Source of the DNA: an uncultured Bacteroidaceae bacterium
Lineage (GTDB): Bacteria; Bacteroidota; Bacteroidia; Bacteroidales; Bacteroidaceae
DNA: 64,000 nucleotides
Direction of reading: 5' to 3'
NCBI GenBank assembly: GCA_944320785.1
Contig: CALUIR010000006.1
Span: forward strand, 6,192 to 70,191
Below the pieces are notes generated by a model that was not told the DNA's origin, did no database searches, and saw only the letters and a list, made by a program, of their open reading frames with translations. Position 1 is the first letter of the stretch. Every line of letters begins with the position of its first letter. This document shows positions 41,401 to 58,870 of the stretch, piece by piece. The position numbers and the translations under genes are program-made.

Positions 41401-41678
41401 AGTTTAAGTGTGTATTTGTGGATGATTTGACTTCCGTGGATGCAGTGATGGAACCGTTGCCTTTTAAGGTCACTAGCCGGAAGCATGAAATATTTGTTGA
41501 AATCATGGATTGTGCAGAACCATTAAAATTGGAAATTTCAGATTGTTTGGGGCGTGTTCTTGTTTCTGAACATGTTACGGGCAAGAATTATACATGTCGC
41601 TTGGGCAGTGGGCTTTATGTGGTCAGTTTGTCAGGAGGGCATTTGAGGAATGAGGCTATTAAATGTTTAATCAAATAA
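38439..41678 (+). CDS. GH2 glycosidase with F5/8-type-C (discoidin) domain and T9SS sorting domain
   Basis: GH2 sugar-binding and TIM regions (WEIVDIPHCWN, NAIRLAHYPHD, WGLQNE, SEYGAGG). Discoidin-like AVDGNYSTRWAAKNAKPHWIEIDLG...YEVEIYGW. C-terminal tail LYVVSLSGGHLRNEAIKCLIK. Confidence 0.85.
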   Translation: MKKLILLFGFFVFGQLAYANVTGRLKINLNADWKFSKGILTDNPALVDYADGSWEIVDIPHCWNSADAQDGGNNYSRTVGWYRKNIPWNASYEGRNLYIEFLGACLQAECFVNGESVGIHKGGYTVFRFDITSKMTQGDNVIAVKVDNRQSEEVAPLGGDFSVLGGIYRDVSLIVANPVHVDLMDNGASGLYLTPTDVGRDNANLEIRSNIVNNSSEPKSVTFHGIIRNPDTFDAISNVPNPNFDVKAMCPGGDPIQTVSKEVVIAAGDSYLFKESIAVTNPHLWNGKKDPYRYIVDLKIYEGDNLIDSVSDYVGFRYYSVTKEGFFLNGELYPLRGVGKHQDQYNKGYAVTHEDMNEDFGIIYEMGANAIRLAHYPHDPYMYELCDRYGLAVWTEIPLVDRPGVAETFNEVTKGQLRELIRQRYNNPSVFFWGLQNEIREQHDEQMRTLMKELDDLAQQEDPSRLTVQATNHNTARNWDSDVFAWNYYPGWYVQNPLFSSKLDSFKDEARPTALSEYGAGGSIYHHEINPAKPVTNGGKFHPEEYQNKVHEQAIIDISTRDFVWGTFLWNIFDFASDGRNEGDQPGTNDKGLVTYDRKVKKDSYYAYKANWSDEPFVYITSRRYTEREELVTPVTVYSNCETVELFINGASQGQKKAEDVQCGIFKWDNMNLQFGIDNKVKVVGMKDGKEYSDEVSWKKRTGTTTELQSDELIIDTENKRIILKKDIPVQEIGEYLQGVDGATFVIVESDGETIVADGFITVGMKVIVTSEDKQNTAVYEFVPGHIALSKTVSTDSEQVDENNLAIYAVDGNYSTRWAAKNAKPHWIEIDLGKEYFLNRAVVYWYNPNGTRTYQYYVKVSNDKNNYLMVADRSENSSSDAVADNLEGRGRYVKVDVLGGNGSTAYPSLYEVEIYGWMIESDKYVIDFEKNEIQIPKTEENVQNLTTDKFLENISFDGNLSYALNSMSYFIQENDELVITDYCGQETKFKCVFVDDLTSVDAVMEPLPFKVTSRKHEIFVEIMDCAEPLKLEISDCLGRVLVSEHVTGKNYTCRLGSGLYVVSLSGGHLRNEAIKCLIK

Positions 41679-41690
41679 TGTTTTAAAACC

Positions 41691-44000: not shown

Positions 44001-44012
44001 TTTGGGTTGTTT

Positions 44013-44052
44013 GTAAATGGGCGTGTCGGAATAGGCATGCCCATTTACCTTT
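44013..44052 (+). terminator. Possible intra-PUL terminator or attenuator
   Basis: 10-bp perfect stem GTAAATGGGC (44013-44022) / GCCCATTTAC (44039-44048), followed by CTTTT. Confidence 0.4.
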
Positions 44053-44068
44053 TAAACAGGATTTTATT

Positions 44069-46876: not shown

Positions 46877-46898
46877 CCTGCTAGTTGAATAATGGGTT

Positions 46899-49115
46899 AT
46901 GGAAAACTTTTGCGGAGGAATCGTATTGGCATTGGCCATATTGTTCGGATTGGGAGTGGAAGCCCAGGAACGTGACGTGGATATTGTGGCAGGCAGACTG
47001 ATTGCTTGCCAGCATCAGTTGTATGGGGATGTGGATCCTACAGTCCTGATGAATGCAATGCTTGACAACGGCAGTTGGGAAAACATTGATTATGCGGACA
47101 GGCATTCCGTGGATGCGGATGGGTGGCGTCCTCACGCTCATTTCTGCAATCTGGCGCAGATGGCTGCTGCTTATAGTATGCCGGGCAATACTTATTATAA
47201 AGATCCTTTGTTGTTGGATAAAATACGAAAGTCCCTTGAATTTGTCCATGCTTGGATTGGTGATCCTTTGGTGTATTCAGACAAGAAGCATCCTGACAGG
47301 AGGGACTTAGATAATTGGTGGTGGACGCAATTGGGGGATGCGCAAAAAATGATGGTAGCATTGTTGCTTGTCAAAGATGATTTGCCTTCAGATGACATCA
47401 AACGTTATTCCACCTTTCTAATAGACAGGACCAGTGACCCTAGTTATTTAGGAATGAATCTGGCTTCTGCGGCGGAAATTGCCTTATATAAAGGATGCAT
47501 AGAGGATGATGCGCAGTTGATATACAAGGGCTTTTCAGCTTATGCCTCTATTTTGAGGCTGGTTGATACGAAGTTTCCAATCAAGGCAGGAGAAAAGACA
47601 GGAGAAGGCTTCCAATATGATTATAGTTTCCATCAGCACCGTAGGCAGCTTCAGAGCGGAAGTTATGGTTTTGACTTGATTCCTGCCTTGACAAATAGCA
47701 TGTTGTTTGCGCAAGGGACATCTTTTGATGTCGCGTTCACGCAAGAAAACCGTTCGGTATATTCCAAAGGCATTCGGGAAGGGCATTTGCTTTTGAGTTA
47801 TCGTGGCACAATGGATTTTGGTTGCAAGGGACGTTCCATGGCAAAGAAGGGTTTTGATGAGACGCTTATTGGCAGGATTAAGGAAGTCGATCCCCAACAT
47901 GCCGATGTTTATGGAAAATGGGAAGAACATGTGGCCTGTGGCGGGGATTTTCCGGTGGTTGGCAATAAATATTTTTGGGATTCTAACATCATGACCCATC
48001 ATGGAAGGCAATATTATTTGTCGGCAAAAATTCAATCCGTGCGGAATGTTGGGACGGAATCTATCAACCAAGAGAACCTGAGGGGGCGCAATTTGCCTAA
48101 AGGAGCTACGAATATTCTTGTCACAGGTGATGAGTATGATGGAATTTATCCAGTCTGGGACTGGTGCCGGATTCCGGGCACGACAGCCGTATTGGATGTG
48201 TCGGGTGCCTGTCTGCCGGATGGTTATTTGTATGCGTCCAATGAGTTTGGAGGCGGAGTGACGGATGGCAGGTCTGGTATCATTGCGTATGCGGATGGTT
48301 ACGATGAAGAAAAGTACGGAGACAGGTTGACGGCCAAGAAAGCTTATTTCTTTATGGACGATTTCATGCTTTGCCTTGGAACGGCTATTAAGGATGACAG
48401 TTCATGCCCGGTGGTAACTTCGGTGAACCAATGTTTGCAGAACGGCTGTATCTATTATGGAGATGGGGATGGCGAAAAGATTTTGGATACTTCTTTGAAT
48501 GCCAATGGTGTTAGCTGGGTGCATCATGGGGGTGTTGGCTACATTTTTCCTTCATCCTCGGAAATAACCATTCAGGGGAGGAAACAGGCCGGTTCATGGA
48601 AGGACATAAACGGGACGCAAAGCGATGGGCTTGTCGAAAAGGACGTGTTCAGCTTGTGGATTAACCATGGGAAGAACCCCGATAATGCTTGTTGCCAATA
48701 TGCGGTGTTGCCAGATAGGACGCGGGAGGAAACGGCGGCTTTGGCACAAGACTTTCCTTTGGCTGTTGTTCGCAACGACAGCATGGCACAGGTCGTTTAC
48801 AGCGAAACGCTGGGGCAATACGGCATTGTGTGTTACGAGGCTGGAACGGTGGAATTGCCGGATGGCCTTATGATAGAAGTGGACAGGCCCGTCATATTCT
48901 TGTTGAAAATGTCAGGAGGGAAGTATGATTTTGTGGCAGCTGACCCCTTGTATGATGGTGAGGATGCTGTGTTGGATGTGTCTGTGTCAGAAAGGGCTAA
49001 GGATGGGAATGTGAAGGAAATGCTTGATTTCCAAGTGGATTTTCCACAAGGGCAATATACAGGGAGTTCTGTGGTAGTGGCGCATGGCGGATGTGGTTCC
49101 CGAAAAAATCCTTAA
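46899..49115 (+). CDS. PL8-family polysaccharide lyase (chondroitin AC / hyaluronate / xanthan lyase fold)
   Basis: Signal peptide. N-terminal alpha-toroid followed by a beta-sandwich. FHQHRRQLQSGSYG, WDWCRIPGTT and NEFGGGVTDG resemble PL8 catalytic-region motifs. Confidence 0.72.
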   Translation: MENFCGGIVLALAILFGLGVEAQERDVDIVAGRLIACQHQLYGDVDPTVLMNAMLDNGSWENIDYADRHSVDADGWRPHAHFCNLAQMAAAYSMPGNTYYKDPLLLDKIRKSLEFVHAWIGDPLVYSDKKHPDRRDLDNWWWTQLGDAQKMMVALLLVKDDLPSDDIKRYSTFLIDRTSDPSYLGMNLASAAEIALYKGCIEDDAQLIYKGFSAYASILRLVDTKFPIKAGEKTGEGFQYDYSFHQHRRQLQSGSYGFDLIPALTNSMLFAQGTSFDVAFTQENRSVYSKGIREGHLLLSYRGTMDFGCKGRSMAKKGFDETLIGRIKEVDPQHADVYGKWEEHVACGGDFPVVGNKYFWDSNIMTHHGRQYYLSAKIQSVRNVGTESINQENLRGRNLPKGATNILVTGDEYDGIYPVWDWCRIPGTTAVLDVSGACLPDGYLYASNEFGGGVTDGRSGIIAYADGYDEEKYGDRLTAKKAYFFMDDFMLCLGTAIKDDSSCPVVTSVNQCLQNGCIYYGDGDGEKILDTSLNANGVSWVHHGGVGYIFPSSSEITIQGRKQAGSWKDINGTQSDGLVEKDVFSLWINHGKNPDNACCQYAVLPDRTREETAALAQDFPLAVVRNDSMAQVVYSETLGQYGIVCYEAGTVELPDGLMIEVDRPVIFLLKMSGGKYDFVAADPLYDGEDAVLDVSVSERAKDGNVKEMLDFQVDFPQGQYTGSSVVVAHGGCGSRKNP

Positions 49116-49177: not shown

Positions 49178-50068
49178 ATGCAGAGCCGTATGAACAGCCA
49201 CATCATCCGCGAAATCACGCCGTTGTCGGAAAGCGATTGCTTTTACATTGCCGACAGGAGGAAGAAGGAATTCACTTACCCCATCCACCGCCACCGCGAG
49301 TTTGAACTGAACTTCACGGAGAATTCCAAGGGCGTGCGCCGCATCGTGGGCGATTCGATGGAGGTCATCGGCGACTATGACCTGGTGCTGATCACGAGCA
49401 AGGACCTGGAGCATGTGTGGGAGCAGCACGAATGCACCTCCACGGAAATCCGCGAGATCACGATACAGTTCTCGCCGGAATTGTTCTTCAACAACCTGTT
49501 GAACAAGAACCAGTTCGCTTCGGTCAACCACATGCTGAAGGACGCGGAGAAAGGCATCTCCTTCCCCCTGTCGGCCATCATGCGGGTGTATGCGCTGCTC
49601 GACGGGCTCTCGTCGGAGGCCGATGGCTTCTATGCCGTGGTCAAGTTCCTGACCATCCTCTACGAATTGTCCAAATGCCCGTACACGCAGCTGTCGAGTT
49701 CGGCTTTCGCGCGGGTGGAGCCTGCCTCCAGCGACAAGCGGATTGCGAAGGTGCAGGAATACATCGCCGGCCATTTCCGTGAGCCGATTTCGTTGCCACA
49801 GTTGGCTGATTTGGTCAACATGACCCCGGTGTCCTTCAGCCGTTTCTTCAAGCTCTGCACGGGCAAGAACATTTCCAACTACATCATCAACGTGCGCATC
49901 GGGGCGGTGGCCCGGCTGCTCGTGGACACCTCCCTGTCCGTTTCCGAGATTTGCTACGACTGCGGCTTCAACAACCTGTCGAACTTCAACCGCATCTTCC
50001 TGAAAAAGAAAGGCTGCTCGCCGAAAACCTTCCGCGAGAATTACCGCAAGAAGCGGGTGCTGGTGTGA
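49178..50068 (+). CDS. AraC/XylS-family transcriptional regulator with N-terminal cupin-like sensor domain
   Basis: N-terminal HRHREFELNF cupin-type segment. C-terminal double HTH (LPQLADLVNMTPVSFSRFFK...ICYDCGFNNLSNFNRIFLKKKGCSPKTFR). Confidence 0.87.
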   Translation: MQSRMNSHIIREITPLSESDCFYIADRRKKEFTYPIHRHREFELNFTENSKGVRRIVGDSMEVIGDYDLVLITSKDLEHVWEQHECTSTEIREITIQFSPELFFNNLLNKNQFASVNHMLKDAEKGISFPLSAIMRVYALLDGLSSEADGFYAVVKFLTILYELSKCPYTQLSSSAFARVEPASSDKRIAKVQEYIAGHFREPISLPQLADLVNMTPVSFSRFFKLCTGKNISNYIINVRIGAVARLLVDTSLSVSEICYDCGFNNLSNFNRIFLKKKGCSPKTFRENYRKKRVLV

Positions 50069-50111
50069 CCTCCCCCGCCGGGCTTCCGAAACGGGACACG
50101 CATGTCGTCAA

Positions 50112-50199
50112 AAAAAGACACGTATCTTTTTCCAAAAGGATACGTATCTTTTTCCAAAAGGATACGTATCTTTTTTGAAAAGGATACGCATCCATTTTC
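50112..50199. repeat. Four head-to-tail 22-bp units, each carrying the palindrome GATACGTATC
   Basis: Unit consensus AAAAGGATACGTATCTTTTTCC. The ACGTATC cores start at 50120, 50142 and 50164, and a degenerate ACGCATC starts at 50186, giving an exact 22-bp period. Confidence 0.9.
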
Positions 50200-50377
50200 A
50201 ATGCCTCCAGCCGGGCGCGGGGACTTGCGCCCTGGCGGGGCTGGAACGGCGCGGCAATTCCTCCCCTATTTTTTTTAATGAGTCAGGATAGTTTACCTTG
50301 AAGGAATCCCCGCCCTGCCTGAAGCCGGGGCGTGTTTCCCGTGTCCTTCTGCGCACTTCATGAAGAAGTTTCCCGAT

Positions 50378-50438
50378 ACGATTAGTAATCGTCCGGCATG
50401 ACGATTAGTAATCGTATGCGTTGACGATTACTAATCGT
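50378..50438. repeat. Three copies of the 15-bp palindrome ACGATTA-N-TAATCGT at an exact 23-bp period
   Basis: ACGATTAGTAATCGT at 50378-50392 and at 50401-50415. ACGATTACTAATCGT at 50424-50438. Confidence 0.92.
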
Positions 50439-50616
50439 ATGAAATGAAGCTCCTGGAGGGAAGCCGGATGCCTTGGCCGGTTCCTTTCCTTCCTTCAAGG
50501 CGGCTTGCCGGGCAAGATGGAAAGATATTTTATTGCATTGGGATTCCCGGCTTTGCAGACGGGAAGGAAAAGAGGGCTTCCCCCTGTTCCGCTTCTGTAT
50601 TTATGTAAACAAATGT

Positions 50617-50720: not shown

Positions 50721-52091
50721 ATGAATAAAATTTCATGTCCCGCATGCGGGTTCGCTTTGATGCTTCTCTTTTTCATGTTTTCTTGCAGCGGCCGTCGGCA
50801 ACACGACGTGGAGGAACTCTTTGCGCGTGCCGCCCGTTGGGAGGAAGCAGGACGTTTGGACTCCGCGTTGGTGGCGTACCAAAACGCTCTCCGAGAGTTG
50901 GAGAACACGGATGATGATGCGAAGAGAGGGGAAGCTCATTTGGCAATAGGAGGCATCTTGGTTAAATCGTTTTGGGACAGGGAAGCCTTTTCGGAATTTG
51001 CCAAAGCATATCAATGTAGCAAGGATTTGGAGGATAAAAGTATAGCTTCCAAAGCGTTGGTTTTTATGGGAAACTATCATACCTTTTATGGCAAAAAAGG
51101 TAAGATGGAAAGCACCAAACAGCATGGGGCGGACATGATTAATCGCACTCTGCGTTTCTTGCCACAGGTGGACAAAGAGACACGTGCAATCATTTACCAC
51201 AATGTGGCTTACGTGCATTATGAGAATGAGGATTACCGTCGGGCATGGATTTATGCGGCGATGTCGGATTTTTGCACTGAGGATAGCGCATTGTTGCATC
51301 GCAATGAATATACAAGGTGTTTGATATATCTTAAAACGGGCAGGAACCGTCAAGCGATAGAATCTTGCCAAGCCATGTTAACTTATCCGGATCCTTATCT
51401 GCAAGCATCGGCATGTACCGTCTTGATTCGGGCTTTTGGCCAATTAGACGACCGTGAACAAAGCCGGAATTATTCCCAACGGTTGGACAGCCTTATTTCG
51501 GGGCTTTCTTATAACAAGGAGGAGATTTTGGCAATATGGCAGCAAGGAACAGAGCCGGAAGGCATTCCTTTCCGCTATTGGGTGAAAGATTTGTGGGTGT
51601 TTTTAGTTGGGGGGATTGCTTTGTTGATATTCTATTTTGTGGCGAAGCGCAAGGCTGGATCGCAAGGCCAGCCATCTGGATTTTCTGATTTTCCACAGGA
51701 AAACTTGGATAAAGAAAATCTTGTCGCGCAGTTTTATGCCACAGAAATTGGCCGTAAAGTTCTGCAAATAAAAGAAGATGATGAAGCGGCAAAGCGGGGA
51801 GAGGCATTGAATAATAGTTTGTGCAACGGGGATTTGGATTTGTTGTCGCAAACTTTGCAGCAGTCCTTTCCCGTTTGTTGCCAAAAGTTGCTTCGCATTT
51901 ATCCGGACATTGTTCCCAAGGACTTGTCTTATTGCTGCCTGTCAGGGTTGCTGGGGTTAAGTTCCCGTTGTTGTGCGGCTTGCCTCGGTTTGTCATCCGA
52001 CAGCATCCGCACCAATAAAATGCGTATTAAAAAGAAGCTGTGCGTTACCCCCGGAGGCAAAGAACTTTTTGAGCAAATGTTCCCTTCATGA
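50721..52091 (+). CDS. One-component transmembrane regulator: signal peptide/lipobox + TPR-like ectodomain + single TM + C-terminal LuxR-type HTH
   Basis: N-terminal LMLLFFMFSCSG. Helical repeat region at aa 30-285. TM helix LWVFLVGGIALLIFYFVA followed by KRK (nt 51591-51644). C-terminal DLSYCCLSGLLGLSSRCCAACLGLSSDSIRTNKMRIKKKL matches the LuxR/GerE HTH pattern (nt 51918-52040). Confidence 0.65.
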   Translation: MNKISCPACGFALMLLFFMFSCSGRRQHDVEELFARAARWEEAGRLDSALVAYQNALRELENTDDDAKRGEAHLAIGGILVKSFWDREAFSEFAKAYQCSKDLEDKSIASKALVFMGNYHTFYGKKGKMESTKQHGADMINRTLRFLPQVDKETRAIIYHNVAYVHYENEDYRRAWIYAAMSDFCTEDSALLHRNEYTRCLIYLKTGRNRQAIESCQAMLTYPDPYLQASACTVLIRAFGQLDDREQSRNYSQRLDSLISGLSYNKEEILAIWQQGTEPEGIPFRYWVKDLWVFLVGGIALLIFYFVAKRKAGSQGQPSGFSDFPQENLDKENLVAQFYATEIGRKVLQIKEDDEAAKRGEALNNSLCNGDLDLLSQTLQQSFPVCCQKLLRIYPDIVPKDLSYCCLSGLLGLSSRCCAACLGLSSDSIRTNKMRIKKKLCVTPGGKELFEQMFPS

Positions 52092-52130
52092 TGGAGGTAG
52101 GAACAATCTATGCTTGTTAAAAATAGCAAA

Positions 52131-52202
52131 TGCTACGCTTAAACCGCGTTTTGCTACGCTTTTTGGTGGATTTGCTACGCTTTTGATGTACAAATGCTAC
52201 GC
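52131..52202 (+). promoter_or_regulatory. Four phased direct repeats of TGCTACGC (candidate operator array) upstream of the precursor gene
   Basis: Copies at 52131-52138, 52152-52159, 52173-52180 and 52195-52202, spaced 21, 21 and 22 bp. The first three extend to TGCTACGCTT. Confidence 0.6.
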
Positions 52203-52204
52203 GA

Positions 52205-52240
52205 TAAATTTGTTTTTGATTTGTTGAGCCTGTACTTTTG
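52205..52240 (+). promoter_or_regulatory. Two candidate -7 boxes for the RiPP operon
   Basis: TAAATTTG at 52205-52212, directly abutting the last repeat, and TACTTTTG at 52233-52240. Either would give a 5' leader of about 190-220 nt before the ATG at 52428. Confidence 0.35.
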
Positions 52241-52427
52241 ACTTCAGATTTTTATGCATGCATTCAAATTGTTTTGGGTTTTGGCAACAAGGCAGCCTCG
52301 TGTGTTTGTTCGGTTTGGCGGGCAGTCATTGAAACTGGATTGCAAGTATGGGCGATTGGCTTCTGCCCAGCCTTGTATGGGTTGTCAAAGTGTGGATAAA
52401 AGGAGTCATGATTTAAAAGGTTTAAAT

Positions 52428-52670
52428 ATGAATAAGGTTTTCATAAAAGAAAATCGCCTTCTCGCTTTGAAAGACGAAGAAGTATTGCAAGAATTTGAAA
52501 TGGTGGAATTGAAAGGTGGAAGTTCAATCAGTCCATTAGGGGATAATTATGGTTGCAATACTAGTGTTTGTGGATGCAATGTGAAAGATTGCAAGGATGA
52601 ATCAGATGTGTCGGATAAGTGTTACGAACCAGTAGAACCCAACTCTATGTATATCTGTTGGCCGAAGTGA
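52428..52670 (+). CDS. RiPP precursor peptide (80 aa): double-glycine leader + 49-aa six-Cys acidic core
   Basis: MNKVFIKENRLLALKDEEVLQEFEMVELKGG / SSISPLGDNYGCNTSVCGCNVKDCKDESDVSDKCYEPVEPNSMYICWPK. The leader fits the double-glycine consensus (hydrophobic at -4, -7 and -12; Glu at -8). It lies immediately upstream of the rSAM maturase and the C39 exporter. The start is at the internal Met of ORF 52254-52670. Confidence 0.7.
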   Translation: MNKVFIKENRLLALKDEEVLQEFEMVELKGGSSISPLGDNYGCNTSVCGCNVKDCKDESDVSDKCYEPVEPNSMYICWPK

Positions 52671-52678
52671 TGTTTTTA

Positions 52679-52701
52679 GGGTACGCCTATTGGGCGTACC
52701 C
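52679..52701 (+). terminator. Intercistronic hairpin (possible partial terminator or RNA-stability element) between precursor and maturase
   Basis: Perfect 9-bp GC-rich stem GGGTACGCC (52679-52687) / GGCGTACCC (52693-52701) with a 5-nt loop. It starts 9 nt after the precursor stop codon. There is no strong T-run. Confidence 0.5.
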
Positions 52702-52734
52702 GCTTATTCTCCTAAATATTTAAATCTGAATACC

Positions 52735-54045
52735 ATGAAAACAAGCCGATATAACTATGTCATTCACGACAACGGGCAGTTGCTTTGCTTCAACGCCTTG
52801 TCGAGGGCGTATTTCTACATGCGCCCGGAGATGGAGCATTATTTGGACGAAGTGCTGGCTCGCCCGGATGACTACAAGGAAAAGCTGCCATCGTTCTACC
52901 AAAAGCTGTCGCAAGGATGGTTCATCGTGGACGAGACGGTGGACGAACTGGAGGTCATCCGCAAGCTGCACCGCGAGGCGTGCGATGCGAAGGATTACAA
53001 CCTCACCATCCTCCCCACCTTGGGCTGCAACTTCCGCTGCTGGTATTGCTACGAAGAACATGCGCAGGCCCGGCCGATGAGCGACGAAGTGGTGGGGCGC
53101 GTCCGCAAGTGCATTGCCCGGATTGTGGAGGAGAAAGATACACGCTCTCTGAACTTGACGTGGTTTGGCGGGGAGCCGTTCTTGCTTTTCCAAAAAATCA
53201 TCGCCCCGCTGAACACGTATGCCAAGGCGCTTTGCCGGGACAGGGGCATCCGCTTCTCCTCGTCGGCCACGACCAATGGGTATTTAATCAACGAAACTGT
53301 GGCGCGGCAGTTGGCGGAACTGTGCATCAACCATTTCCAAATCACCTTGGACGGCGACCGCACGCACCACGACCGCACGCGGGTGGCCAAGGAGGGGTCG
53401 TCGTTTGACACCATCCTGCATAACGTGAACCTCATCTGCCGGGAAAATTCGGAGGCGGAAGTGCTGCTCCGCTTCAACTATGAGGCCGGCAACTTCCTGC
53501 CGGAGCAAATCGCCCGGCAAGTGGCGGAGCGCGTTGGGAAGACCCATCGGAAGCGAATCCGCTTCATCTTCCGCAAGGTGTGGCAAGCCGAGGAAGTGCC
53601 GGACGTGAGGGCGAAGGTGCAGGAACTGATTCGCCTGCTGAAAGCGGAAGGCTTTGATTATGCCTACGGGTATGAGTTGGTGACAGATTATACTTCCTGC
53701 TATGCAGCCCGCAAGCACTCTATTGTCATCACGCCGGACGGCTTGGTGGGCAAATGCACGGCGAGGACTGATTTTGCGCAATATGCGGCGGGGCGGTTAG
53801 GCGAAGACGGGCGCATCGTGTGGAAAGAGGCAGGCGCATCGCTGAACGACATTTATGCCACGCCGCTGTTTGAGAACGAGATGTGCCTGTCGTGCAAGAA
53901 GCTGCCCCTGTGCATCGGGATGTGTCCCAAAATCATCAGCCCGGAGGGCAAGATACCTCCTTTGGATTATGCCTGCCCGCACAAGGACAAGCAGTTTGAT
54001 TGGGGCGACCTGATAGCGGGTTATTGCCGGATGCGGGATGCCTGA
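52735..54045 (+). CDS. Radical SAM peptide maturase with C-terminal SPASM domain
   Basis: CNFRCWYC (CX3CX2C, nt 53026-53049) and GGEPFL. Full SPASM signature: C337-X13-G-X4-C356, C399-X2-C-X5-C-X3-C412 and C429 (numbering from ORF 52690; nt 53698-53976). Start at the ATG at 52735 (MKTSRYNYV). Confidence 0.88.
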   Translation: MKTSRYNYVIHDNGQLLCFNALSRAYFYMRPEMEHYLDEVLARPDDYKEKLPSFYQKLSQGWFIVDETVDELEVIRKLHREACDAKDYNLTILPTLGCNFRCWYCYEEHAQARPMSDEVVGRVRKCIARIVEEKDTRSLNLTWFGGEPFLLFQKIIAPLNTYAKALCRDRGIRFSSSATTNGYLINETVARQLAELCINHFQITLDGDRTHHDRTRVAKEGSSFDTILHNVNLICRENSEAEVLLRFNYEAGNFLPEQIARQVAERVGKTHRKRIRFIFRKVWQAEEVPDVRAKVQELIRLLKAEGFDYAYGYELVTDYTSCYAARKHSIVITPDGLVGKCTARTDFAQYAAGRLGEDGRIVWKEAGASLNDIYATPLFENEMCLSCKKLPLCIGMCPKIISPEGKIPPLDYACPHKDKQFDWGDLIAGYCRMRDA

Positions 54046-54111
54046 CAGGCATCCCGTGGACAGGCGGGAATCATCGTTTGGAATTTGTATCACTTTATAA
54101 ACATTCAGATT

Positions 54112-56430
54112 ATGAGAGGGAAACGTTTTTGGGTAGCGGCGCTGGCAGGATGCTTGGCGGCGGCTGCGCATGCCTACAAGCTGGAAGGCACGTTGCAAGA
54201 TGCGGCGCAACGCCCCGTGGAGTATGCCAACGTGCAACTGTTGGGCAGGGACTCATCGTTCGTGGCAGGCACGGTGTCCGACCGTCGGGGCGCATTCATG
54301 GTGGAAGCCGACGGGGGCGACTACTTGCTGCGCGTGTCGATGGTGGGCTATGCCACGGTGACAAGGGAGGTGAGGAATGTGGCCGGTGATGTGCGGCTTG
54401 GCACGATTGTGCTGGAAGAAGCGACCAATGAGTTGGACAGCATTACGGTGACGGCTCACCGCATCATTCGCCGCATCGACCGGCAGATTGCGTTTCCCGG
54501 CAAACTGGAAACGGAAAGTTCTGCCACGGCCTTGGAACTGCTGAAGAAAATGTCGCTTCCTTTGCTGAAAGTGGACGACGTGAACCGCAGCGTGAGCATG
54601 GTGACGGGGGGCAGCGTGCAGCTACGCATCAACGGGCGTCCCGCCACGGTGGAAGAAGCCGCCCGCATCCCTTCGAAAGATATTATCCGCATTGAGTATC
54701 ACGATAACCCCGGCGTGCGGATACAGGAAGAAGCCTTGGTGGACTTCATTGTGCGCCGACGGGAAGCCGGAGGGCAAGTAGTGGTCAACACGCGGAATGC
54801 CGTTCACTTGTGGTTCAGCGATGATGATGTGACTTTCAAGGTGAACCACGGGCGTTCGGAATGGTCGGGCAACTACACGTTTTCTTACCGCGACTATGAC
54901 GATGCTTGGAATGAGGCGACCTTGGACTATACAACGCCGGAAGGAGAGTTCAGCCAGAAGTTAGATGGCATTCCTTCGCCTTTCTATTATCAGACGCATA
55001 ACATTGATTTGTCTTACAACTACACGAAGCCGGACAAGCGGATGCTGAACGTGCTTTACAGGGGGACTTACCATCGGAACAATTCATTGGACCGCGCTAA
55101 TGTGATGTATTCCGAATACCCGGAATGGAATTATACGTATGAAGACCGTGACAAAGATCCGTACAGCGTTTCTGCGTTGGACCTTTTCTATAAAGAGGAA
55201 ATCGACAAGACCCAGCGTGTGTATGCCGACCTGTGGGGAAGCTACACGGACACGAAATATGACCGGGAATACATTTACCGCAGCATGGCGCAACCCGATG
55301 CGGGCGGCAGCTATGTGAACCACACGAAGGGGAAGAAATACAGCCTGATAGCCGAGGCGGATTATGAAAAGGAGTGGGACAAGGTGAAGCTCTATGCGGG
55401 CGGGAAGTACAGTTGGGGACATGCTGACAACCGCTACCGAGGAACAACCGTGGCCAACACGGAGATGACCAATTCCGACCTTTATCTCTACTCCCAACTG
55501 ACGGGACGCTACAAGAAGCTGTCGTACCAAGTAGGCGTGGGCGTGTCGTATGCTTATTTTGACGAAGGGGGGGAGGGGTACAAGTTTTGGACGTTCCGTC
55601 CTTCTGCCTCCTTGAACTACCAGCAGACGGAGACGGGCGGATGGATGTTCCGCTACGATTTCCGAAGTTTGCCGAGCATTCCTTCGCTTTCCAGCCTCAG
55701 TGATGTGGAGCAAGACGTGGATCCATTGGTGGTCAGCCGGGGAACACCGGGCTTGAAACCGTACCGTTATTATGCAAATGCGATGATGGCGGGCTATGTG
55801 CATCCGAAAGTGACAGTCTATTGGGGCGGTGAGCATTATTATTATGACAATGTAATTATGACAAGCATGTGGTGGGACGATGCGCGGGGCAAGTTTGTTT
55901 CCGCGCCTGAAAACCAGAAACATTATCAGACAGCGAGGGCTTTTGCCGGCCTGCAATGGCAGGTGGTGAAAGATGTGTTCAACCTCTCGTTCTATGGGAT
56001 GGCAGGCTGGATGGAGAGCAAGGGGAACAATTTCCGCCATACTTATACGAGCCTTTACGGACGGGTCTCGGCTGATTTTTATTGGAAAGGATGGAACTTG
56101 GGCGTAAGTGCGCACAACCGCTTCCACAGCCTTTGGGGAGAAAGCCTGAGTTATGGGGAATGGCCGGGCTATGGTTTCTCTGGTGGTTACCGCTACAAAG
56201 ACTGGTACTTCGGCCTTTATGCCTGGGGGCCGTTCACAGATGCGGCAAGTTATTATAGCGAGTCCCTTCGGGAAGTGTATCGGAGAAAGTCGTGGCGCTA
56301 CATCGGGCAGTCATCCCCCATTTACATGTTGCAAGTCAACTGGAACTTCAATTGGGGCAGGAAGTCGCAAGCCGGGAAGAAAACGATTAACAACAGCGAT
56401 TCCGACACCGGCATTTTGAAGGCCAATTAA
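54112..56430 (+). CDS. Outer-membrane beta-barrel protein with CarboxypepD_reg-like N-domain (TonB-dependent-receptor-like, OMP_b-brl_3 type)
   Basis: Signal peptide (AAAAHA). YKLEGTLQDAAQRPVEYANVQLLGRDSSFVAGTVSDRRGAF. A plug-like segment, then about 550 aa of Y/W/G-rich strand repeats. Its stop codon lies 1 nt before the exporter ATG. Confidence 0.75.
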   Translation: MRGKRFWVAALAGCLAAAAHAYKLEGTLQDAAQRPVEYANVQLLGRDSSFVAGTVSDRRGAFMVEADGGDYLLRVSMVGYATVTREVRNVAGDVRLGTIVLEEATNELDSITVTAHRIIRRIDRQIAFPGKLETESSATALELLKKMSLPLLKVDDVNRSVSMVTGGSVQLRINGRPATVEEAARIPSKDIIRIEYHDNPGVRIQEEALVDFIVRRREAGGQVVVNTRNAVHLWFSDDDVTFKVNHGRSEWSGNYTFSYRDYDDAWNEATLDYTTPEGEFSQKLDGIPSPFYYQTHNIDLSYNYTKPDKRMLNVLYRGTYHRNNSLDRANVMYSEYPEWNYTYEDRDKDPYSVSALDLFYKEEIDKTQRVYADLWGSYTDTKYDREYIYRSMAQPDAGGSYVNHTKGKKYSLIAEADYEKEWDKVKLYAGGKYSWGHADNRYRGTTVANTEMTNSDLYLYSQLTGRYKKLSYQVGVGVSYAYFDEGGEGYKFWTFRPSASLNYQQTETGGWMFRYDFRSLPSIPSLSSLSDVEQDVDPLVVSRGTPGLKPYRYYANAMMAGYVHPKVTVYWGGEHYYYDNVIMTSMWWDDARGKFVSAPENQKHYQTARAFAGLQWQVVKDVFNLSFYGMAGWMESKGNNFRHTYTSLYGRVSADFYWKGWNLGVSAHNRFHSLWGESLSYGEWPGYGFSGGYRYKDWYFGLYAWGPFTDAASYYSESLREVYRRKSWRYIGQSSPIYMLQVNWNFNWGRKSQAGKKTINNSDSDTGILKAN

Positions 56431-56431
56431 T

Positions 56432-58645
56432 ATGCGGGCGCGGAAGTTCCCATATTGTCATCAACTGGATGCCATGGATTGCGGCGGGGCATGCCTTCGC
56501 ATGGTAGCAGCTTGCTACGGGCGCAACTTCTCCGGCCAGGAAGTGCAACGGCTCTGTGCGGCGGGGCGCGAGGGCGTTTCGGTGCTTTCCGTGTGTGAAG
56601 CGGCAGAGGCGATGGGCTTCCGCGCCGTGGCAGGCCGGGTGTCGTTGGAGAAGCTGACGGCGCAACAGCCCTTTCCCTGCATCTTGCATTGGCGGCAGGA
56701 ACATTTTGTGGTACTTTACGCCGTGAAGCGGAAGCATCGGGGCGACCGCTGGTTTTGCGTGGCCGATCCGGGGAAAGGACTACAGGCATTGGATGAAGAA
56801 ACTTTCAGGGAACATTGGCTGAGTACGCGTCGGCAGGGTGAAGAACGCGGCATTGTGGTGTCGCTCCAGCCTGCGGCAGCTTTCTTTGAGAAGCATCCTG
56901 CCTGTGGAAAGAAGGTGCCTGCGGCGGCTTTCCTGTACAGGTATATGCGGCCATACGGGAAGTTTTTCCTGCATCTGGCGGCAGGGCTGCTGTTGGGGAG
57001 CGTGTTGCAACTGATTGCTCCTTTCCTGACGCAGGCCATTGTGGACACCGGCATTGCCAACCGTGACATCGGTTTTATCTATTTGGTGCTGGCCGGGCAA
57101 TTGATGCTGGTGCTGAGCAGCACGGCCATCGACTTTGTGCGGCGGTGGATATTGCTCCACATCAGCGTGCGCGTCAACCTGTCGCTGCTGTCTGACTTCA
57201 TCATCAAATTGATGAAGCTGCCCATGGGCTTCTTTGAGGAGAAGCAAACCGGCGACCTGATGCAGCGGATGAACGACCACGAACGGGTGCAGCAGTTCCT
57301 TACCACGCAAACGCTCGGCATCCTGTATTCGCTTTTCAGCTTCGTGGTGTTCGGCGTGGTGTTGCTGTATTATGACGTTTGGATTTTTGCCGTGTTTGCC
57401 TTGGGCAGCCTGCTTTATGCCGGATGGATTGGCCTGTTCCTGCGGCGGAGGCGGACGATTGATTATGAATATTTCGAGCAAAGGGCCTTGAACCAAAGCA
57501 AGACGATGCAACTGTTGGGCGGCATGCAGGAGACAAAGCTGCAAGGATGCGAAAGCCGCCGCCGGTGGGAATGGGAAGACGTGCAGGCGGGACTGTTTCA
57601 AGTGAACATGAAATCGCTGAAACTGTCGCAAGCCCAAGAGGTGGGCGGCGTTTTCATCAACCAAGCCAAAAGCATTGTCATCACCATCATGGCGGCAACG
57701 GCCGTGGTGGACGGGCGTTTGTCGTTGGGCATGATGCTGGCCATTCAATATATCTTAGGGCAGTTGTCCTACCCGGTGGAGCAATTGCTGGCTTTCATCT
57801 ACCATTGGCAGGACGTGAAAATCAGCTTGGAGCGCATGGCGGAAATCCATGTGCAGGAAGATGAAAATGAAGGGAGGCGCATGGATTCGCCTGTCCCGAG
57901 CAGCCCTGCTGCCATAGATGTGGCAGATGTGAGCTTCCAGTATGAAGGAAAACATTCACCGAAGGTGCTGGACCATGTGACGCTGCACCTGCCGCAGGGG
58001 AAGGTGACGGCCATTGTGGGCGGAAGCGGCAGCGGGAAAACTACTTTGGTGAAATTGTTGTTGGGCTATTATGTTCCCACGGACGGGGACATCCGGGTGG
58101 GCGGGGCGGCGTTGGCCGGGATGGACAAAAAGAAATGGCGGCGGCAATGCGGCGTGGTGATGCAGGACGGCTACATTTTTTCGGAGTCCATCGCCCGCAA
58201 CATTGCGGTGGGCGACGGGGAGATAGATTCTCAAAGATTGAAGGAAGCCGCCCGTTTGGCCTGTGTGGATGAATTTGCAGAACGCTTGCCGTTGCGATAT
58301 GACACGGTGGTGGGAATGGACGGGCGGGGCATCAGCCAAGGGCAGCGGCAGCGCATCCTGATAGCCCGCGCGGTATATAAAGATCCGCCTTTCCTGTTTT
58401 TCGATGAAGCGACCAACTCATTGGACACTGTGAACGAGCGGGTTATCATGGAAAACCTGGATGGATTTTATAAAGGGAAAACCGTAGTGGTAGTGGCGCA
58501 TCGGTTGAGTACGGTGCGCCATGCGGACCAGATTGTGGTGCTGGACAAAGGACGGGTGGTGGAAACAGGTACGCATGAGGAACTGGCTGCCCGCAGGGGG
58601 GCTTATTTTGAATTGGTGAAGAACCAGCTTGAACTGGGAGAATAG
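56432..58645 (+). CDS. Bacteriocin-type ABC exporter with N-terminal C39 cysteine peptidase domain
   Basis: C39 motif QLDAMDCGGACLRMV (catalytic Cys17, nt 56480-56482). Six-TM domain. Walker A GGSGSGKTT, signature ISQGQRQR, Walker B FLFFDEATNSLD. Confidence 0.92.
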   Translation: MRARKFPYCHQLDAMDCGGACLRMVAACYGRNFSGQEVQRLCAAGREGVSVLSVCEAAEAMGFRAVAGRVSLEKLTAQQPFPCILHWRQEHFVVLYAVKRKHRGDRWFCVADPGKGLQALDEETFREHWLSTRRQGEERGIVVSLQPAAAFFEKHPACGKKVPAAAFLYRYMRPYGKFFLHLAAGLLLGSVLQLIAPFLTQAIVDTGIANRDIGFIYLVLAGQLMLVLSSTAIDFVRRWILLHISVRVNLSLLSDFIIKLMKLPMGFFEEKQTGDLMQRMNDHERVQQFLTTQTLGILYSLFSFVVFGVVLLYYDVWIFAVFALGSLLYAGWIGLFLRRRRTIDYEYFEQRALNQSKTMQLLGGMQETKLQGCESRRRWEWEDVQAGLFQVNMKSLKLSQAQEVGGVFINQAKSIVITIMAATAVVDGRLSLGMMLAIQYILGQLSYPVEQLLAFIYHWQDVKISLERMAEIHVQEDENEGRRMDSPVPSSPAAIDVADVSFQYEGKHSPKVLDHVTLHLPQGKVTAIVGGSGSGKTTLVKLLLGYYVPTDGDIRVGGAALAGMDKKKWRRQCGVVMQDGYIFSESIARNIAVGDGEIDSQRLKEAARLACVDEFAERLPLRYDTVVGMDGRGISQGQRQRILIARAVYKDPPFLFFDEATNSLDTVNERVIMENLDGFYKGKTVVVVAHRLSTVRHADQIVVLDKGRVVETGTHEELAARRGAYFELVKNQLELGE

Positions 58646-58651
58646 TGCGGT

Positions 58652-58801
58652 ATGGATGAATTGAAAAATATTGAATTACGGAGCGAAAAGGCGAGAAACA
58701 TCATTGGGAGGATGCCACGTTCGTTGACCGTGTGGAGCTACGTGGTGTTGTGCGTGGTGGCTGTTTTATTGGCTTTGGGGATATGGATTGCTAATAAATG
58801 A
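58652..58801 (+). pseudogene. 49-aa remnant of a HlyD-type membrane-fusion (periplasmic adaptor) protein
   Basis: MDELKNIELRSEKARNIIGRMPRSLTVWSYVVLCVVAVLLALGIWIANK* resembles the cytoplasmic N-tail plus TM anchor of Bacteroidales bacteriocin HlyD proteins. The whole periplasmic domain is missing, and only 77 nt remain before the convergent gene. Confidence 0.45.
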
Positions 58802-58829: not shown

Positions 58830-58870
58830 TTGCCCTCCGCCGATGTGACATCGCCGGAGGGCAATCTTTT
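58830..58870 (+). terminator. Terminator of the RiPP operon
   Basis: TTGCCCTCCG (58830-58839) / CCGGAGGGCAA (58854-58864) stem followed by TCTTTT. Confidence 0.55.

What the first reader, a model, noticed from the sequence alone, without database searches (positions are those of the whole stretch)
50721..58801. Compact radical-SAM/SPASM RiPP cluster with its own transmembrane regulator, an in-operon outer-membrane barrel and a C39 exporter
Six co-directional elements form a self-contained peptide natural-product system:
- a TPR-TM-LuxR regulator (50721-52091);
- a phased operator-like array (52131-52202);
- an 80-aa double-glycine precursor (52428-52670);
- an rSAM/SPASM maturase with a complete CX3CX2C motif plus the 7-Cys SPASM signature (52735-54045);
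- a CarboxypepD_reg-headed OM beta-barrel (54112-56430);
- a C39-peptidase ABC exporter (56432-58645), followed by a stub of the HlyD adaptor.

From memory this looks related to the computationally defined 'GG-Bacteroidales' rSAM/precursor families in TIGRFAMs. I know of no chemically characterised product for that family. I also do not recognise the combination with an OM barrel and a membrane-spanning LuxR regulator as a described architecture. A six-Cys core with an rSAM/SPASM enzyme suggests thioether (sactionine/ranthionine-type) or other radical crosslinks rather than plain disulfides.
Basis: partly seen in the sequence, partly recalled or inferred. Interest (0 to 1): 0.9.

Follow-up and report, generated by a model that had tools for sequence, protein, structure and literature searches.

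The report
Bacteroidales radical-SAM peptide cluster with TonB-type barrel
This is an intact but chemically uncharacterised gene cluster for a cysteine-rich, enzyme-crosslinked secreted peptide; it belongs to a cluster type common in Bacteroidota whose exporter pairs with a TonB-dependent-type outer-membrane barrel and keeps only a 49-residue membrane anchor of the usual periplasmic adaptor.

Summary
All six elements are at the stated coordinates and are real. The maturase has the radical-SAM motif and seven invariant SPASM cysteines. The 80-aa double-glycine precursor is under purifying selection (dN/dS about 0.1). The exporter is an intact C39 ABC transporter. The 4x TGCTACGC array is non-random and recurs beside a 43%-identical regulator elsewhere.

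The interpretation needs four corrections:
- **Family.** Precursor and maturase fail the GG-Bacteroidales models and every other named maturase model. This is an unnamed family with more than 500 relatives across Bacteroidota.
- **Barrel.** It is a TonB-dependent-transporter fold with a CarboxypepD_reg head and a TonB-box-like DSITVTA motif (Oar class).
- **"HlyD stub".** It is a complete, conserved 49-aa protein, the cytoplasmic motif plus membrane helix of the adaptor. It belongs to a family of 44-91-aa proteins.
- **Architecture.** Radical-SAM enzyme, C39 exporter and barrel without a full adaptor is recurrent (34 of 48 exporter-bearing loci), and two papers have partly noted it. The regulator family more often sits beside DUF3244 genes.

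Best model: two-step secretion, exporter to periplasm and then barrel across the outer membrane. Re-uptake by the barrel is a serious rival. The chemistry is unknown; a Cys-Asn thioether is hinted at.

The parts
50721..52091 (+). Membrane-spanning one-component regulator. It has a lipobox-like signal (invariant Cys22), a periplasmic TPR domain (~aa 30-260), one membrane helix (~aa 313-335) and a cytoplasmic helical domain ending in a probable LuxR/sigma-70-region-4-type HTH with four invariant Cys.
   Evidence: ORF. Nine-sequence alignment. AlphaFold2 mean pLDDT 79.4. Foldseek best matches are the LGN TPR domain; Rap (peptide-binding) TPR proteins appear further down at E about 1e-3. GerE E=0.034 and Sigma70_r4_2 E=0.14. 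hhalign P=9.5e-4, probability 22%.
52127..52202 (+). Operator array of four direct copies of TGCTACGC, at 52131, 52152, 52173 and 52195, spaced 21, 21 and 22 bp. The outer copies read CAAATGCTACGC and the inner copies TTTGCTACGCTTTT.
   Evidence: The array is conserved in L001. The same motif occurs four times downstream of the 43%-identical regulator in L089. A different motif (TGTCACG) follows the 30-32%-identical regulators, whose recognition helix also differs.
52182..52212 (+). Inferred Bacteroides-type core promoter: TTTG at 52182-52185, a 19-nt spacer that contains repeat 4, and TAAATTTG at 52205-52212.
   Evidence: Read directly from the sequence. The consensus used (-33 TTTG, -7 TAnnTTTG) comes from my own knowledge of Bacteroides promoters. 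No transcription data were available.
52213..52427 (+). Long 5' leader, possibly structured. It shares a conserved core with the spacer that follows DUF3244 genes in related loci.
   Evidence: Alignment A6. RNA folding z-score -2.47. No Rfam match.
52428..52670 (+). Precursor peptide of 80 aa. The leader is MNKVFIKENRLLALKDEEVLQEFEMVELKGG. The 49-aa core is SSISPLGDNYGCNTSVCGCNVKDCKDESDVSDKCYEPVEPNSMYICWPK, with 6 Cys.
   Evidence: dN/dS 0.09-0.11. The leader is conserved in L002 and L091/L092, while the cores differ.
52679..52701 (+). Stem-loop of 10 bp between precursor and maturase (GGGTACGCC-TAT-TGGGCGTACCC). It probably sets the ratio of precursor transcript to enzyme transcript.
   Evidence: The same hairpin follows the precursor in L001 and L091. 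Its function is inferred.
52735..54045 (+). Radical-SAM/SPASM peptide maturase of 436 aa. It has CX3CX2C at C98/C102/C105 and seven SPASM Cys (C322, C341, C384, C387, C393, C397, C414).
   Evidence: The nearest solved structure by sequence is CteB, 5wgg, E=1.8e-29.
54112..56430 (+). Outer-membrane TonB-dependent-transporter-like protein of 772 aa. It has a signal peptide, a CarboxypepD_reg beta-sandwich (aa 22-101), the TonB-box-like motif DSITVTA (aa 109-115), a short plug-like domain (aa ~118-215) and a large beta-barrel (22 strands expected from the TBDT matches; not counted on the model).
   Evidence: AlphaFold2 mean pLDDT 84.7. Foldseek against PDB: Cir E=2e-18, then OprC, BtuB, ChuA and PfeA. 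Family consensus VTVTAS. dN/dS 0.07.
56432..58645 (+). C39 peptidase-containing ABC exporter (PCAT) of 737 aa. Gln11, Cys17, the His of the HFVV motif, the Asp of the ADPG motif and the Walker A and B motifs are all present.
   Evidence: Pfam C39 87.1 bits, ABC_membrane 91.5 bits, ABC_tran 103.2 bits. The catalytic residues were read from the translation.
58652..58801 (+). Mini membrane-fusion-protein of 49 aa. It consists of the cytoplasmic motif IELRSEKARNIIGRMPRSL plus one membrane helix and has no periplasmic domain.
58832..58870 (.). Hairpin followed by a T-run, a probable bidirectional terminator shared with the convergent M6 protease gene.
   Evidence: Read from the sequence. It was not returned by the terminator scan.

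Best explanation
This is a functional biosynthetic operon for a secreted, cysteine-rich ribosomal peptide. It belongs to a widespread but unnamed Bacteroidota family.

1. **Transcription.** The TPR-membrane-HTH regulator binds the 4x TGCTACGC array, which overlaps a Bacteroides-type promoter, and controls transcription. The binding is inferred from the way the motif changes together with the HTH.
2. **Stoichiometry.** A hairpin after the precursor gene probably keeps the precursor in excess over the enzymes.
3. **Modification.** The radical-SAM/SPASM enzyme recognises the conserved leader (LLAL..EVLQEFEMVELKGG) and installs radical crosslinks on the 6-Cys core. The most likely product is a non-alpha-carbon thioether from Cys to a nearby upstream Asn or Asp, as in ranthipeptides or NxxC peptides. 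This step is inferred.
4. **Inner-membrane step.** The C39 ABC exporter cleaves after Gly-Gly and moves the peptide across the inner membrane. Its only partner is a 49-aa remnant of the membrane-fusion protein, which keeps the cytoplasmic motif and membrane helix but has no periplasmic domain. No TolC-bridging type I conduit can therefore form, and the peptide is released into the periplasm. This step is inferred.
5. **Outer-membrane step.** The co-transcribed Oar-class TonB-dependent-type barrel carries the peptide across the outer membrane. I favour outward transport. This step is also inferred.
For: **Gene content.** Domains and catalytic residues are intact. Selection is purifying on the precursor, the barrel and the core of the mini-protein.

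**Recurrence.** The order precursor(s), radical-SAM enzyme, barrel, exporter, mini-protein recurs in loci whose maturase is only 27-45% identical: L003-5, L006, L048, L069, L077, L080, L085. Of 48 non-redundant loci with an exporter, 34 have a co-directional barrel and only 2 have a full-length (390-433 aa) adaptor.

**Mini-protein.** It forms a family: 22 of 24 hits are 44-91 aa long and share the motif IELRSEKVRNxIGxMP followed by a membrane helix.

**Barrel.** It has a TonB-dependent-transporter fold with a CarboxypepD_reg N-terminal extension. Oar has the same domain layout and is required, through its TonB box, to secrete PopC from the periplasm (PMC6434023).

**Operator and regulator.** TGCTACG goes with one HTH type (window, L001, L089). 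TGTCACG goes with the other (L090, L091).

**Cores.** Cys makes up 12.3% and Asn 12.1% of core residues. Asn lies within 4 residues upstream of Cys in 49 of 95 cases, against 37.8 +/- 4.4 in shuffles.
Against: - No transcript, peptide or mass data exist.
- Every biochemically characterised TonB-dependent transporter except Oar is an importer.
- Barrel homologues at about 30% identity lie outside RiPP loci.
- Lack of a full adaptor is not specific to loci with a barrel: 10 of 14 exporter loci without a barrel also show none. The census therefore does not show that the barrel replaces the adaptor.
- My adaptor detection used one N-terminal profile and could miss other HlyD types.
- The Asn-Cys bias is modest (p=0.009 before correction for 16 tests).
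- The regulator family is small, and two of its members sit beside DUF3244 genes with no RiPP cluster. Control of this operon is inferred from adjacency and from the motif.
- The LuxR-type HTH assignment is weak.
Confidence: 0.55

Rival explanations
1. The cluster is the same RiPP system, but the barrel is an importer. The mature peptide is exported and then taken back into the periplasm by the TonB-dependent barrel. It could return as a metal-loaded peptide (a metallophore, as MbnT does for methanobactin). Alternatively it could return as a signal read by the periplasmic TPR domain of the regulator, much as SusC-type import feeds periplasmic sensors.
For: The barrel has a TonB-dependent-transporter fold with a TonB-box-like DSITVTA motif, and its best structural matches are importers (Cir, OprC, BtuB, ChuA). 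The cores are Cys-rich. The regulator's TPR domain is predicted to be periplasmic, and peptide-binding Rap TPR proteins are among its weaker structural matches (E about 1e-3). Other loci of the family use histidine-kinase and response-regulator pairs, which are typical of peptide autoinduction. The methanobactin/MbnT precedent comes from my own knowledge.
Against: The cluster encodes no periplasmic binding protein, no inner-membrane importer and no metal-handling gene. A radical-SAM/SPASM enzyme crosslinking the Cys would consume the thiols needed for metal binding. The vestigial adaptor would already deliver the peptide to the periplasm, which makes re-import for sensing redundant. The regulator family is not specific to RiPP loci.
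Confidence: 0.28
2. The core cysteines simply form disulfides, as in bacteroidetocin-like class II peptides. The radical-SAM enzyme makes a different modification, such as epimerisation, a C-C or C-O crosslink, or methylation. Alternatively the barrel acts in self-protection rather than transport.
For: SPASM enzymes catalyse many reaction types, and the maturase reaches no named family's cut-off. Its closest matches (TIGR04463, Clo7bot, CefB, geopeptide) are themselves uncharacterised. No immunity gene is recognisable in the cluster.
Against: Cys-rich cores co-occur with this maturase family in 20 divergent loci, while every other core position varies. Asn is both enriched and positioned upstream of Cys. 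The nearest solved relative by sequence is the thioether-forming CteB.
Confidence: 0.12
3. The cluster is a decaying remnant. The adaptor was truncated by the rearrangement that placed the M6 protease gene next to it, so export is defective.
For: The mini ORF ends 78 bp before a convergent gene. A full-length 433-aa adaptor with the same N-terminal motif exists in L015.
Against: ORFs of the same short length follow the exporter in unrelated contexts and genera: L003-5, L007, L077 (Segatella bryantii) and L085 (Prevotella). The core of the ORF carries only synonymous changes against L087. There are 22 independent clusters of 44-91 aa proteins. All other genes are intact, with dN/dS of 0.07-0.11.
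Confidence: 0.05

Closest known systems
Radical-SAM/SPASM RiPP maturases with an N-terminal leader-binding region: CteB (thermocellin, ranthipeptide), PapB, and the uncharacterised NCBIfam families TIGR04463, TIGR04334 (Clo7bot) and NF038107 (CefB)
   Same: It has the CX3CX2C motif, a seven-Cys SPASM domain, about 430-450 aa, an adjacent short Cys-rich precursor, and full-length similarity to TIGR04463 (residues 7-398).
   Different: It scores far below every family's cut-off (169 against 525, 153 against 600, 148 against 600). Identity to characterised enzymes is confined to the radical-SAM core. It is found in Bacteroidota, acts on double-glycine leaders and is coupled to a C39 exporter and a TonB-type barrel.
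GG-Bacteroidales system (TIGR04148 maturase, TIGR04149 precursor, TIGR04150 pseudo-rSAM)
   Same: It occurs in the same phylum, uses double-glycine leaders and pairs them with a SPASM maturase. The leader shows a faint hit to TIGR04149 (12.8 bits, E=0.083).
   Different: The precursor scores below the 25-bit cut-off. TIGR04148 is not among the 25 best families for the maturase. There is no pseudo-rSAM partner gene in the cluster.
Bacteroidales RiPP clusters BGC6-9 and BGC2 of Fernandez-Cantos et al. 2023 (PMC10352776), and the Bacteroidetes graspetide/SPASM loci of Makarova et al. 2022 (PMC8939145)
   Same: They combine a C39 exporter with an outer-membrane protein and have no recognised membrane-fusion protein. 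TPR proteins are seen as possible regulators. A pfam14905/TonB-like outer-membrane protein is listed as locus-associated and predicted to act in export.
   Different: Those clusters also carry YcaO, LanM or ATP-grasp enzymes, whereas here the radical-SAM enzyme is the only tailoring enzyme. Neither paper reports the vestigial 44-91-aa adaptor or the operator array.
Oar of Myxococcus xanthus (TonB-dependent transporter required for PopC secretion; PMC6434023)
   Same: It has the same layout: a CarboxypepD_reg N-terminal extension, a TonB box, a plug and a 22-strand barrel. It provides a two-step route from the periplasm across the outer membrane.
   Different: Oar is about 1,060 aa (from my own knowledge) and moves a folded protease. 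It is not encoded with an ABC exporter or a RiPP. Export by the barrel studied here is untested.
Type I secretion of double-glycine peptides in Gram-negatives (colicin V CvaB-CvaA-TolC)
   Same: It uses a C39 ABC exporter that cleaves after Gly-Gly. The mini-protein shares the N-terminal motif and membrane helix of Bacteroidota HlyD-type adaptors.
   Different: The adaptor here lacks its whole periplasmic part (49 aa against 390-433 aa). No TolC gene is in the locus; a TonB-type barrel is there instead.
Methanobactin operons (MbnA precursor with the MbnT TonB-dependent importer)
   Same: A RiPP precursor and a TonB-dependent transporter are encoded together. The comparison rests on my own knowledge.
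   Different: There is no MbnB/MbnC chemistry, no MATE exporter and no periplasmic binding protein. The maturase here is a radical-SAM/SPASM enzyme.

Membership tests
Radical-SAM/SPASM peptide maturases | CX3CX2C motif binding the SAM-cleaving [4Fe-4S] cluster | tested here: met
   C98, C102 and C105 are invariant in 31 homologues. PF04055 scores 49.1 bits against a cut-off of 29.5.
Radical-SAM/SPASM peptide maturases | C-terminal SPASM domain with seven Cys for two auxiliary clusters | tested here: met
   TIGR04085 scores 40.3 bits against a cut-off of 27. C322, C341, C384, C387, C393, C397 and C414 are invariant.
Radical-SAM/SPASM peptide maturases | Modifies an adjacent precursor peptide | not testable with these tools
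   Adjacent double-glycine, Cys-rich small ORFs occur in 20 or more loci of the family. Enzyme activity needs co-expression and mass spectrometry.
GG-Bacteroidales system (TIGR04148/TIGR04149/TIGR04150) | Precursor matches TIGR04149 above its cut-off | tested here: not met
   12.8 bits, E=0.083, against a cut-off of 25.
GG-Bacteroidales system (TIGR04148/TIGR04149/TIGR04150) | Maturase matches TIGR04148; a pseudo-rSAM partner is present | tested here: not met
   TIGR04148 is absent from the 25 best of 61 families, and no family reaches its cut-off. No further radical-SAM-like ORF lies in 50.7-58.9 kb.
TIGR04463 radical SAM/SPASM RiPP maturase family | Whole-protein score at or above the curated cut-off | tested here: not met
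   168.9 bits against a cut-off of 525.
Peptidase-containing ABC transporters (PCAT / bacteriocin exporters) | N-terminal C39 domain with catalytic Cys and His, six-helix membrane domain, ABC ATPase | tested here: met
   PF03412 scores 87.1 bits, PF00664 91.5 bits and PF00005 103.2 bits. The sequence shows Q11, C17 (DCGGACL), HFVV, ADPG, Walker A GGSGSGKTT and Walker B LFFDEA. NCBIfam equivalogs are below cut-off: TIGR03796 435 against 853, TIGR01193 357 against 524.
Tripartite type I secretion system (ABC + membrane-fusion protein + TolC) | Membrane-fusion protein with periplasmic alpha-hairpin, lipoyl and beta-barrel domains | tested here: not met
   The only adaptor-like ORF is 49 aa and ends just after its membrane helix. 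It matches no Pfam or NCBIfam family.
TonB-dependent transporters, Oar subclass | CarboxypepD_reg N-terminal extension | tested here: met
   PF13620 scores 49.0 bits against a cut-off of 32.3, and PF13715 scores 41.1 bits. The model shows a beta-sandwich at aa 22-101 with pLDDT about 90.
TonB-dependent transporters, Oar subclass | Plugged 22-strand barrel fold | tested here: met
   AlphaFold2 mean pLDDT 84.7. Foldseek matches Cir at 2e-18, then OprC, BtuB and PfeA, with TM-scores of 0.5-0.64. At the sequence level, Pfam Plug and PF14905 are not hit by this copy.
TonB-dependent transporters, Oar subclass | Functional TonB box and dependence on TonB | tested here: inconclusive
   The motif DSITVTA lies at aa 109-115 in a flexible linker, and the family consensus is VTVTAS. 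Its resemblance to FhuA DTITVTA and BtuB DTLVVTA is recalled from memory. Interaction with TonB is untested.
LuxR/GerE-type HTH regulators | C-terminal four-helix GerE domain | tested here: inconclusive
   PF00196 gives E=0.034 in 2 of 6 members and no hit for the window protein. Sigma70_r4_2 gives E=0.15. NCBIfam BT3442_fam scores 25 bits against a cut-off of 940.
Ranthipeptides / sactipeptides | Cys sulfur to carbon thioether crosslinks installed by the radical-SAM enzyme | not testable with these tools
   There are only hints: the cores are rich in Cys and Asn, with Asn upstream of Cys, and CteB is the nearest solved relative.

The most novel reading that the evidence does not exclude
Bacteroidota use a previously undescribed two-step route to secrete modified peptides. 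A C39 ABC exporter is stabilised by a roughly 50-aa vestigial membrane-fusion protein and releases the peptide into the periplasm. A dedicated Oar-class TonB-dependent barrel then expels it across the outer membrane. This would make TonB-powered export a general peptide-secretion pathway rather than a Myxococcus curiosity. The product would be a new Asn/Asp-Cys thioether peptide class from gut Bacteroidales.
Probability: 0.3. Interest if true: 0.8.

Novelty: new variant of a known kind. Interest (0 to 1): 0.55.

Why it matters
Bacteroidota dominate gut and many environmental communities, yet I found no chemically characterised product for their radical-SAM RiPP clusters in the literature searched.

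This locus is a compact, intact example of a cluster family found in hundreds of species. It offers two testable questions beyond the peptide's structure:
- How does a Gram-negative cell get a double-glycine peptide across the outer membrane without a TolC-bridging adaptor?
- Do CarboxypepD_reg-headed TonB-dependent barrels export as well as import?

The 44-91-aa remnant of the adaptor is a small protein family that gene callers and earlier cluster surveys missed. It may mark the minimal part of HlyD-type adaptors that the ABC exporter itself needs.

Tried and rejected
- **GG-Bacteroidales membership.** Rejected on HMM scores.
- **Truncated pseudogene.** The idea that the 49-aa ORF is a truncated pseudogene was rejected.
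- **Extra TGCTACGC copies.** The copies at 44151 and 44203 are not operator sites. They lie inside the coding sequence 44069-46876.
- **Barrel versus adaptor length.** I looked for a correlation between barrel presence and adaptor truncation. There is no discriminating association, because full adaptors are rare with or without a barrel.
- **RiPP-dedicated barrel subfamily.** Homologues at about 30% identity (P0153, P0171, P0207) lie in unrelated contexts.
- **Rfam scan of 50-59 kb.** It gave only sub-threshold microRNA-like hits on palindromes.
- **HTH assignment.** A profile search of PDB sequences with the regulator's C-terminal domain found nothing meaningful. Foldseek with the whole regulator model was dominated by the TPR domain, so it could not test the HTH.
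- **Organism.** The window is not among the species representatives of genome contigs; the best maturase match there is 38%. Exact-sequence look-up shows an unnamed NCBI contig of 85,965 bp.
- **Literature.** Searches for a characterised product of this family found none.

Full report
**1. Observation**

*Maturase (52735-54045).* It passes the Radical_SAM model (49.1 bits, cut-off 29.5) and the SPASM model (TIGR04085, 40.3 bits, cut-off 27). In an alignment of 31 homologues, C98, C102 and C105 and seven C-terminal Cys (C322, C341, C384, C387, C393, C397, C414) are invariant.

*Precursor (52428-52670).* It reads MNKVFIKENRLLALKDEEVLQEFEMVELKGG followed by a 49-aa core with six Cys. Against relatives about 91% identical in DNA, its dN/dS is 0.09-0.11, and the Cys residues are kept through TGC-to-TGT changes. 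It is therefore a real coding gene.

*Exporter (56432-58645).* It carries Peptidase_C39, ABC_membrane and ABC_tran above their cut-offs. The catalytic Gln, Cys, His and Asp and the Walker motifs are visible in the translation.

*Operator array.* There are four copies of TGCTACGC at 52131, 52152, 52173 and 52195, spaced 21, 21 and 22 bp. The window holds six matches against 0.93 expected, and no shuffle reaches six. The other two copies lie inside a coding sequence and are chance.

**2. The maturase family**

The precursor scores 12.8 bits on TIGR04149 against a cut-off of 25. TIGR04148 is not among the 25 best families for the maturase. The best matches are all far below their cut-offs:

| Family | Score (bits) | Cut-off (bits) |
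|---|---|---|
| TIGR04463 | 169 | 525 |
| Clo7bot (TIGR04334) | 153 | 600 |
| CefB (NF038107) | 148 | 600 |

The protein belongs to an unnamed family. A search of 5.8 billion proteins gave 302 hits, annotated only as "radical SAM protein". A scan of species-representative genomes gave at least 545 loci in Prevotella, Segatella, Parabacteroides, Chryseobacterium, Flavobacterium, Chitinophaga and others, with a tail in Firmicutes. The nearest solved structure by sequence is the thioether-forming CteB (E=1.8e-29, radical-SAM core only).

**3. The barrel**

The window copy hits only the CarboxypepD_reg models. An AlphaFold2 model built on 56 homologues has a mean pLDDT of 84.7. It shows an N-terminal beta-sandwich, a flexible linker, a short alpha/beta plug-like domain and a large barrel. 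Foldseek against PDB returns TonB-dependent transporters only: Cir at E=2e-18, then OprC, BtuB, ChuA and PfeA.

The linker contains DSITVTA (aa 109-115), and the family consensus is VTVTAS. From memory, this is close to the TonB boxes of FhuA and BtuB.

This layout is that of Oar in Myxococcus xanthus, which is required, through its TonB box, for secretion of PopC from the periplasm (PMC6434023).

**4. The "HlyD stub"**

The ORF at 58652-58801 is complete: 49 aa, its own stop, then a hairpin. A locus whose maturase is 43% identical and whose barrel is 28% identical has a 59-62-aa ORF in the same position after the exporter. That ORF is 53% identical to the window's (IELRSEKVRNMIGEMPSFLIRWG plus a membrane helix).

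Across loci, the ORF that follows the exporter and carries this motif falls into these length classes:

| Length | Loci |
|---|---|
| 50-67 aa | L077 (Segatella bryantii), L085 (Prevotella MAG), L007 |
| 154-169 aa | L006, L042, L048, L069, L080, L088 |
| 241-244 aa | L010, L011 (Chryseobacterium), L023 (Chitinophaga) |
| 390-433 aa (full length) | L009, L015 |

Against the close relative L087, the window ORF differs at 13 synonymous and 9 non-synonymous codons, and the non-synonymous changes lie mostly at the two ends.

A search of 1.84 billion representative proteins gave 24 hits at E<=1e-3. Twenty-two of them are 44-91 aa long and share the motif.

The ORF is therefore a conserved mini-protein. 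It corresponds to the cytoplasmic segment and membrane anchor of a membrane-fusion protein without any periplasmic part.

**5. How common is the architecture?**

I surveyed 83 non-redundant loci of the maturase family. Forty-eight carry a C39 exporter. Thirty-four of those have a co-directional barrel within 1.5 kb, and only two have a full-length adaptor.

The architecture is therefore recurrent, not unique to this genome. It has been partly noticed before:
- PMC10352776 remarks that several Bacteroidales clusters have an exporter and an outer-membrane protein but no membrane-fusion protein, and asks whether transport differs.
- PMC8939145 lists pfam14905/TonB-like proteins as associated with Bacteroidetes graspetide/SPASM loci and predicts export.

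Two results limit the inference. Lack of an adaptor is just as common in exporter loci without a barrel. Barrel homologues at about 30% identity lie in unrelated contexts. The barrel was therefore recruited from a broad family, and the census does not show that it replaces the adaptor.

**6. The regulator**

The protein has, in order:
- a lipobox-like signal with an invariant Cys22;
- a TPR domain, confident in the model, whose best matches are the LGN TPR domain, with peptide-binding Rap proteins further down at E about 1e-3;
- one hydrophobic helix;
- a cytoplasmic helical domain.

The family is small, with 11 hits. A 43%-identical member (L089) is followed by four TGCTACG(C/T) repeats with 22-bp spacing and then a DUF3244 gene, with no RiPP cluster. 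The 30-32%-identical members differ in the predicted recognition helix (TGSARQHKQRIKRKL against SDSIRTNKMRIKKKL). They are followed by TGTCACG-type repeats 21 bp apart. This joint change is good indirect evidence that the regulator binds the array.

In L091 and L092, which share the window's upstream synteny (PL8 lyase, AraC, regulator), a DUF3244 gene sits between the operator and a homologous precursor, hairpin and maturase. The window's lineage therefore appears to have lost DUF3244. Its 5' leader keeps a core shared with the post-DUF3244 spacer.

The third repeat abuts a TTTG, and the fourth lies in the 19-nt spacer before TAAATTTG. From my own knowledge, this fits a Bacteroides -33/-7 promoter.

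**7. Chemistry**

Twenty precursors from divergent loci share double-glycine leaders and hypervariable cores. The cores contain 12.3% Cys and 12.1% Asn. Asn lies within four residues upstream of Cys more often than in shuffled cores (49 of 95 against 37.8 +/- 4.4; p=0.009, uncorrected for 16 tests). This is compatible with Cys-Asn/Asp thioethers of the ranthipeptide or NxxC type. It is a hint, not evidence.

**8. Mechanism and verdict**

I favour the following model (confidence about 0.55):
1. The regulator controls transcription from the operator-overlapped promoter.
2. The maturase crosslinks the core under guidance of the leader.
3. The C39 exporter, together with the mini-adaptor, cleaves the leader and moves the peptide to the periplasm.
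4. The Oar-class barrel carries the peptide across the outer membrane.

The main rival (0.28) keeps steps 1-3 but makes the barrel an importer, for re-uptake or sensing. Disulfide-only chemistry or another modification (0.12) and a decaying cluster (0.05) are less likely.

The finding is a genuine, intact member of an uncharacterised and widespread cluster type. It does carry one feature that appears undescribed, the vestigial adaptor family, and it poses a testable question about TonB-type barrels in peptide export.

Noticed in passing
window 50094-50203: Four to five tandem copies of a 22-bp, partly self-complementary unit (GGATACGTATCTTTTTCCAAAA) lie just downstream of the AraC-family gene. 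They give weak microRNA-like Rfam hits only because they are palindromic.
   Followed up: no
window 50378-50446: Three tandem 23-bp units each contain the palindrome ACGATTA(G/C)TAATCGT. They lie about 275 bp upstream of the regulator gene and could be an operator for another regulator.
   Followed up: no
window 52213-52427; L091 9100-9375; L090 11820-12105; L089 11890-12130: The precursor's 215-nt 5' leader shares a conserved core (ATTTGTYSGGTTTGGC...AAACYG...) with the spacer that follows DUF3244 genes in related loci. It folds somewhat better than shuffles (z=-2.47) and has no Rfam match.
   Followed up: partly
L089 11508-11897; L090 11472-11822; L091 8753-9103; L092 2399-2713: Homologues of the regulator are always followed by a small secreted DUF3244 protein. 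In L091 and L092 it lies between the operator and the RiPP precursor. The window lacks it. Its role in the system is unknown.
   Followed up: partly
window 51933-51983 (regulator residues 405-421): Four invariant cysteines (YCCLSG...RCCAAC) sit inside the predicted DNA-binding helix-turn-helix of the regulator family. This is unusual for this kind of domain and could indicate redox or metal sensitivity.
   Followed up: no
L003 9555-9701; L006 7305-7391: Some loci of the family carry a second double-glycine peptide with no Cys and a Trp/Tyr/acidic-rich core (EWVYDEETDEWYWIEDGRK...; GHWKELPDGTFVWLDD) upstream of the Cys-rich precursor.
   Followed up: no
L002 11320-16066; L040 3516-14177: Some loci encode two or three paralogous barrels around the maturase. 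L002 has two barrels and no exporter in the locus.
   Followed up: no
window 38439-49115: Upstream lies a glycosaminoglycan-type polysaccharide utilisation region: large ORFs at 38439-41678 and 41691-44000, a 935-aa ORF at 44069-46876 whose syntenic counterpart in L091 carries GH88 and F5/8 type C domains, a PL8 chondroitinase-AC-like lyase, and an AraC regulator at 49178-50068. The same synteny in L091 shows that the regulator and RiPP module sit at a conserved chromosomal site.
   Followed up: partly
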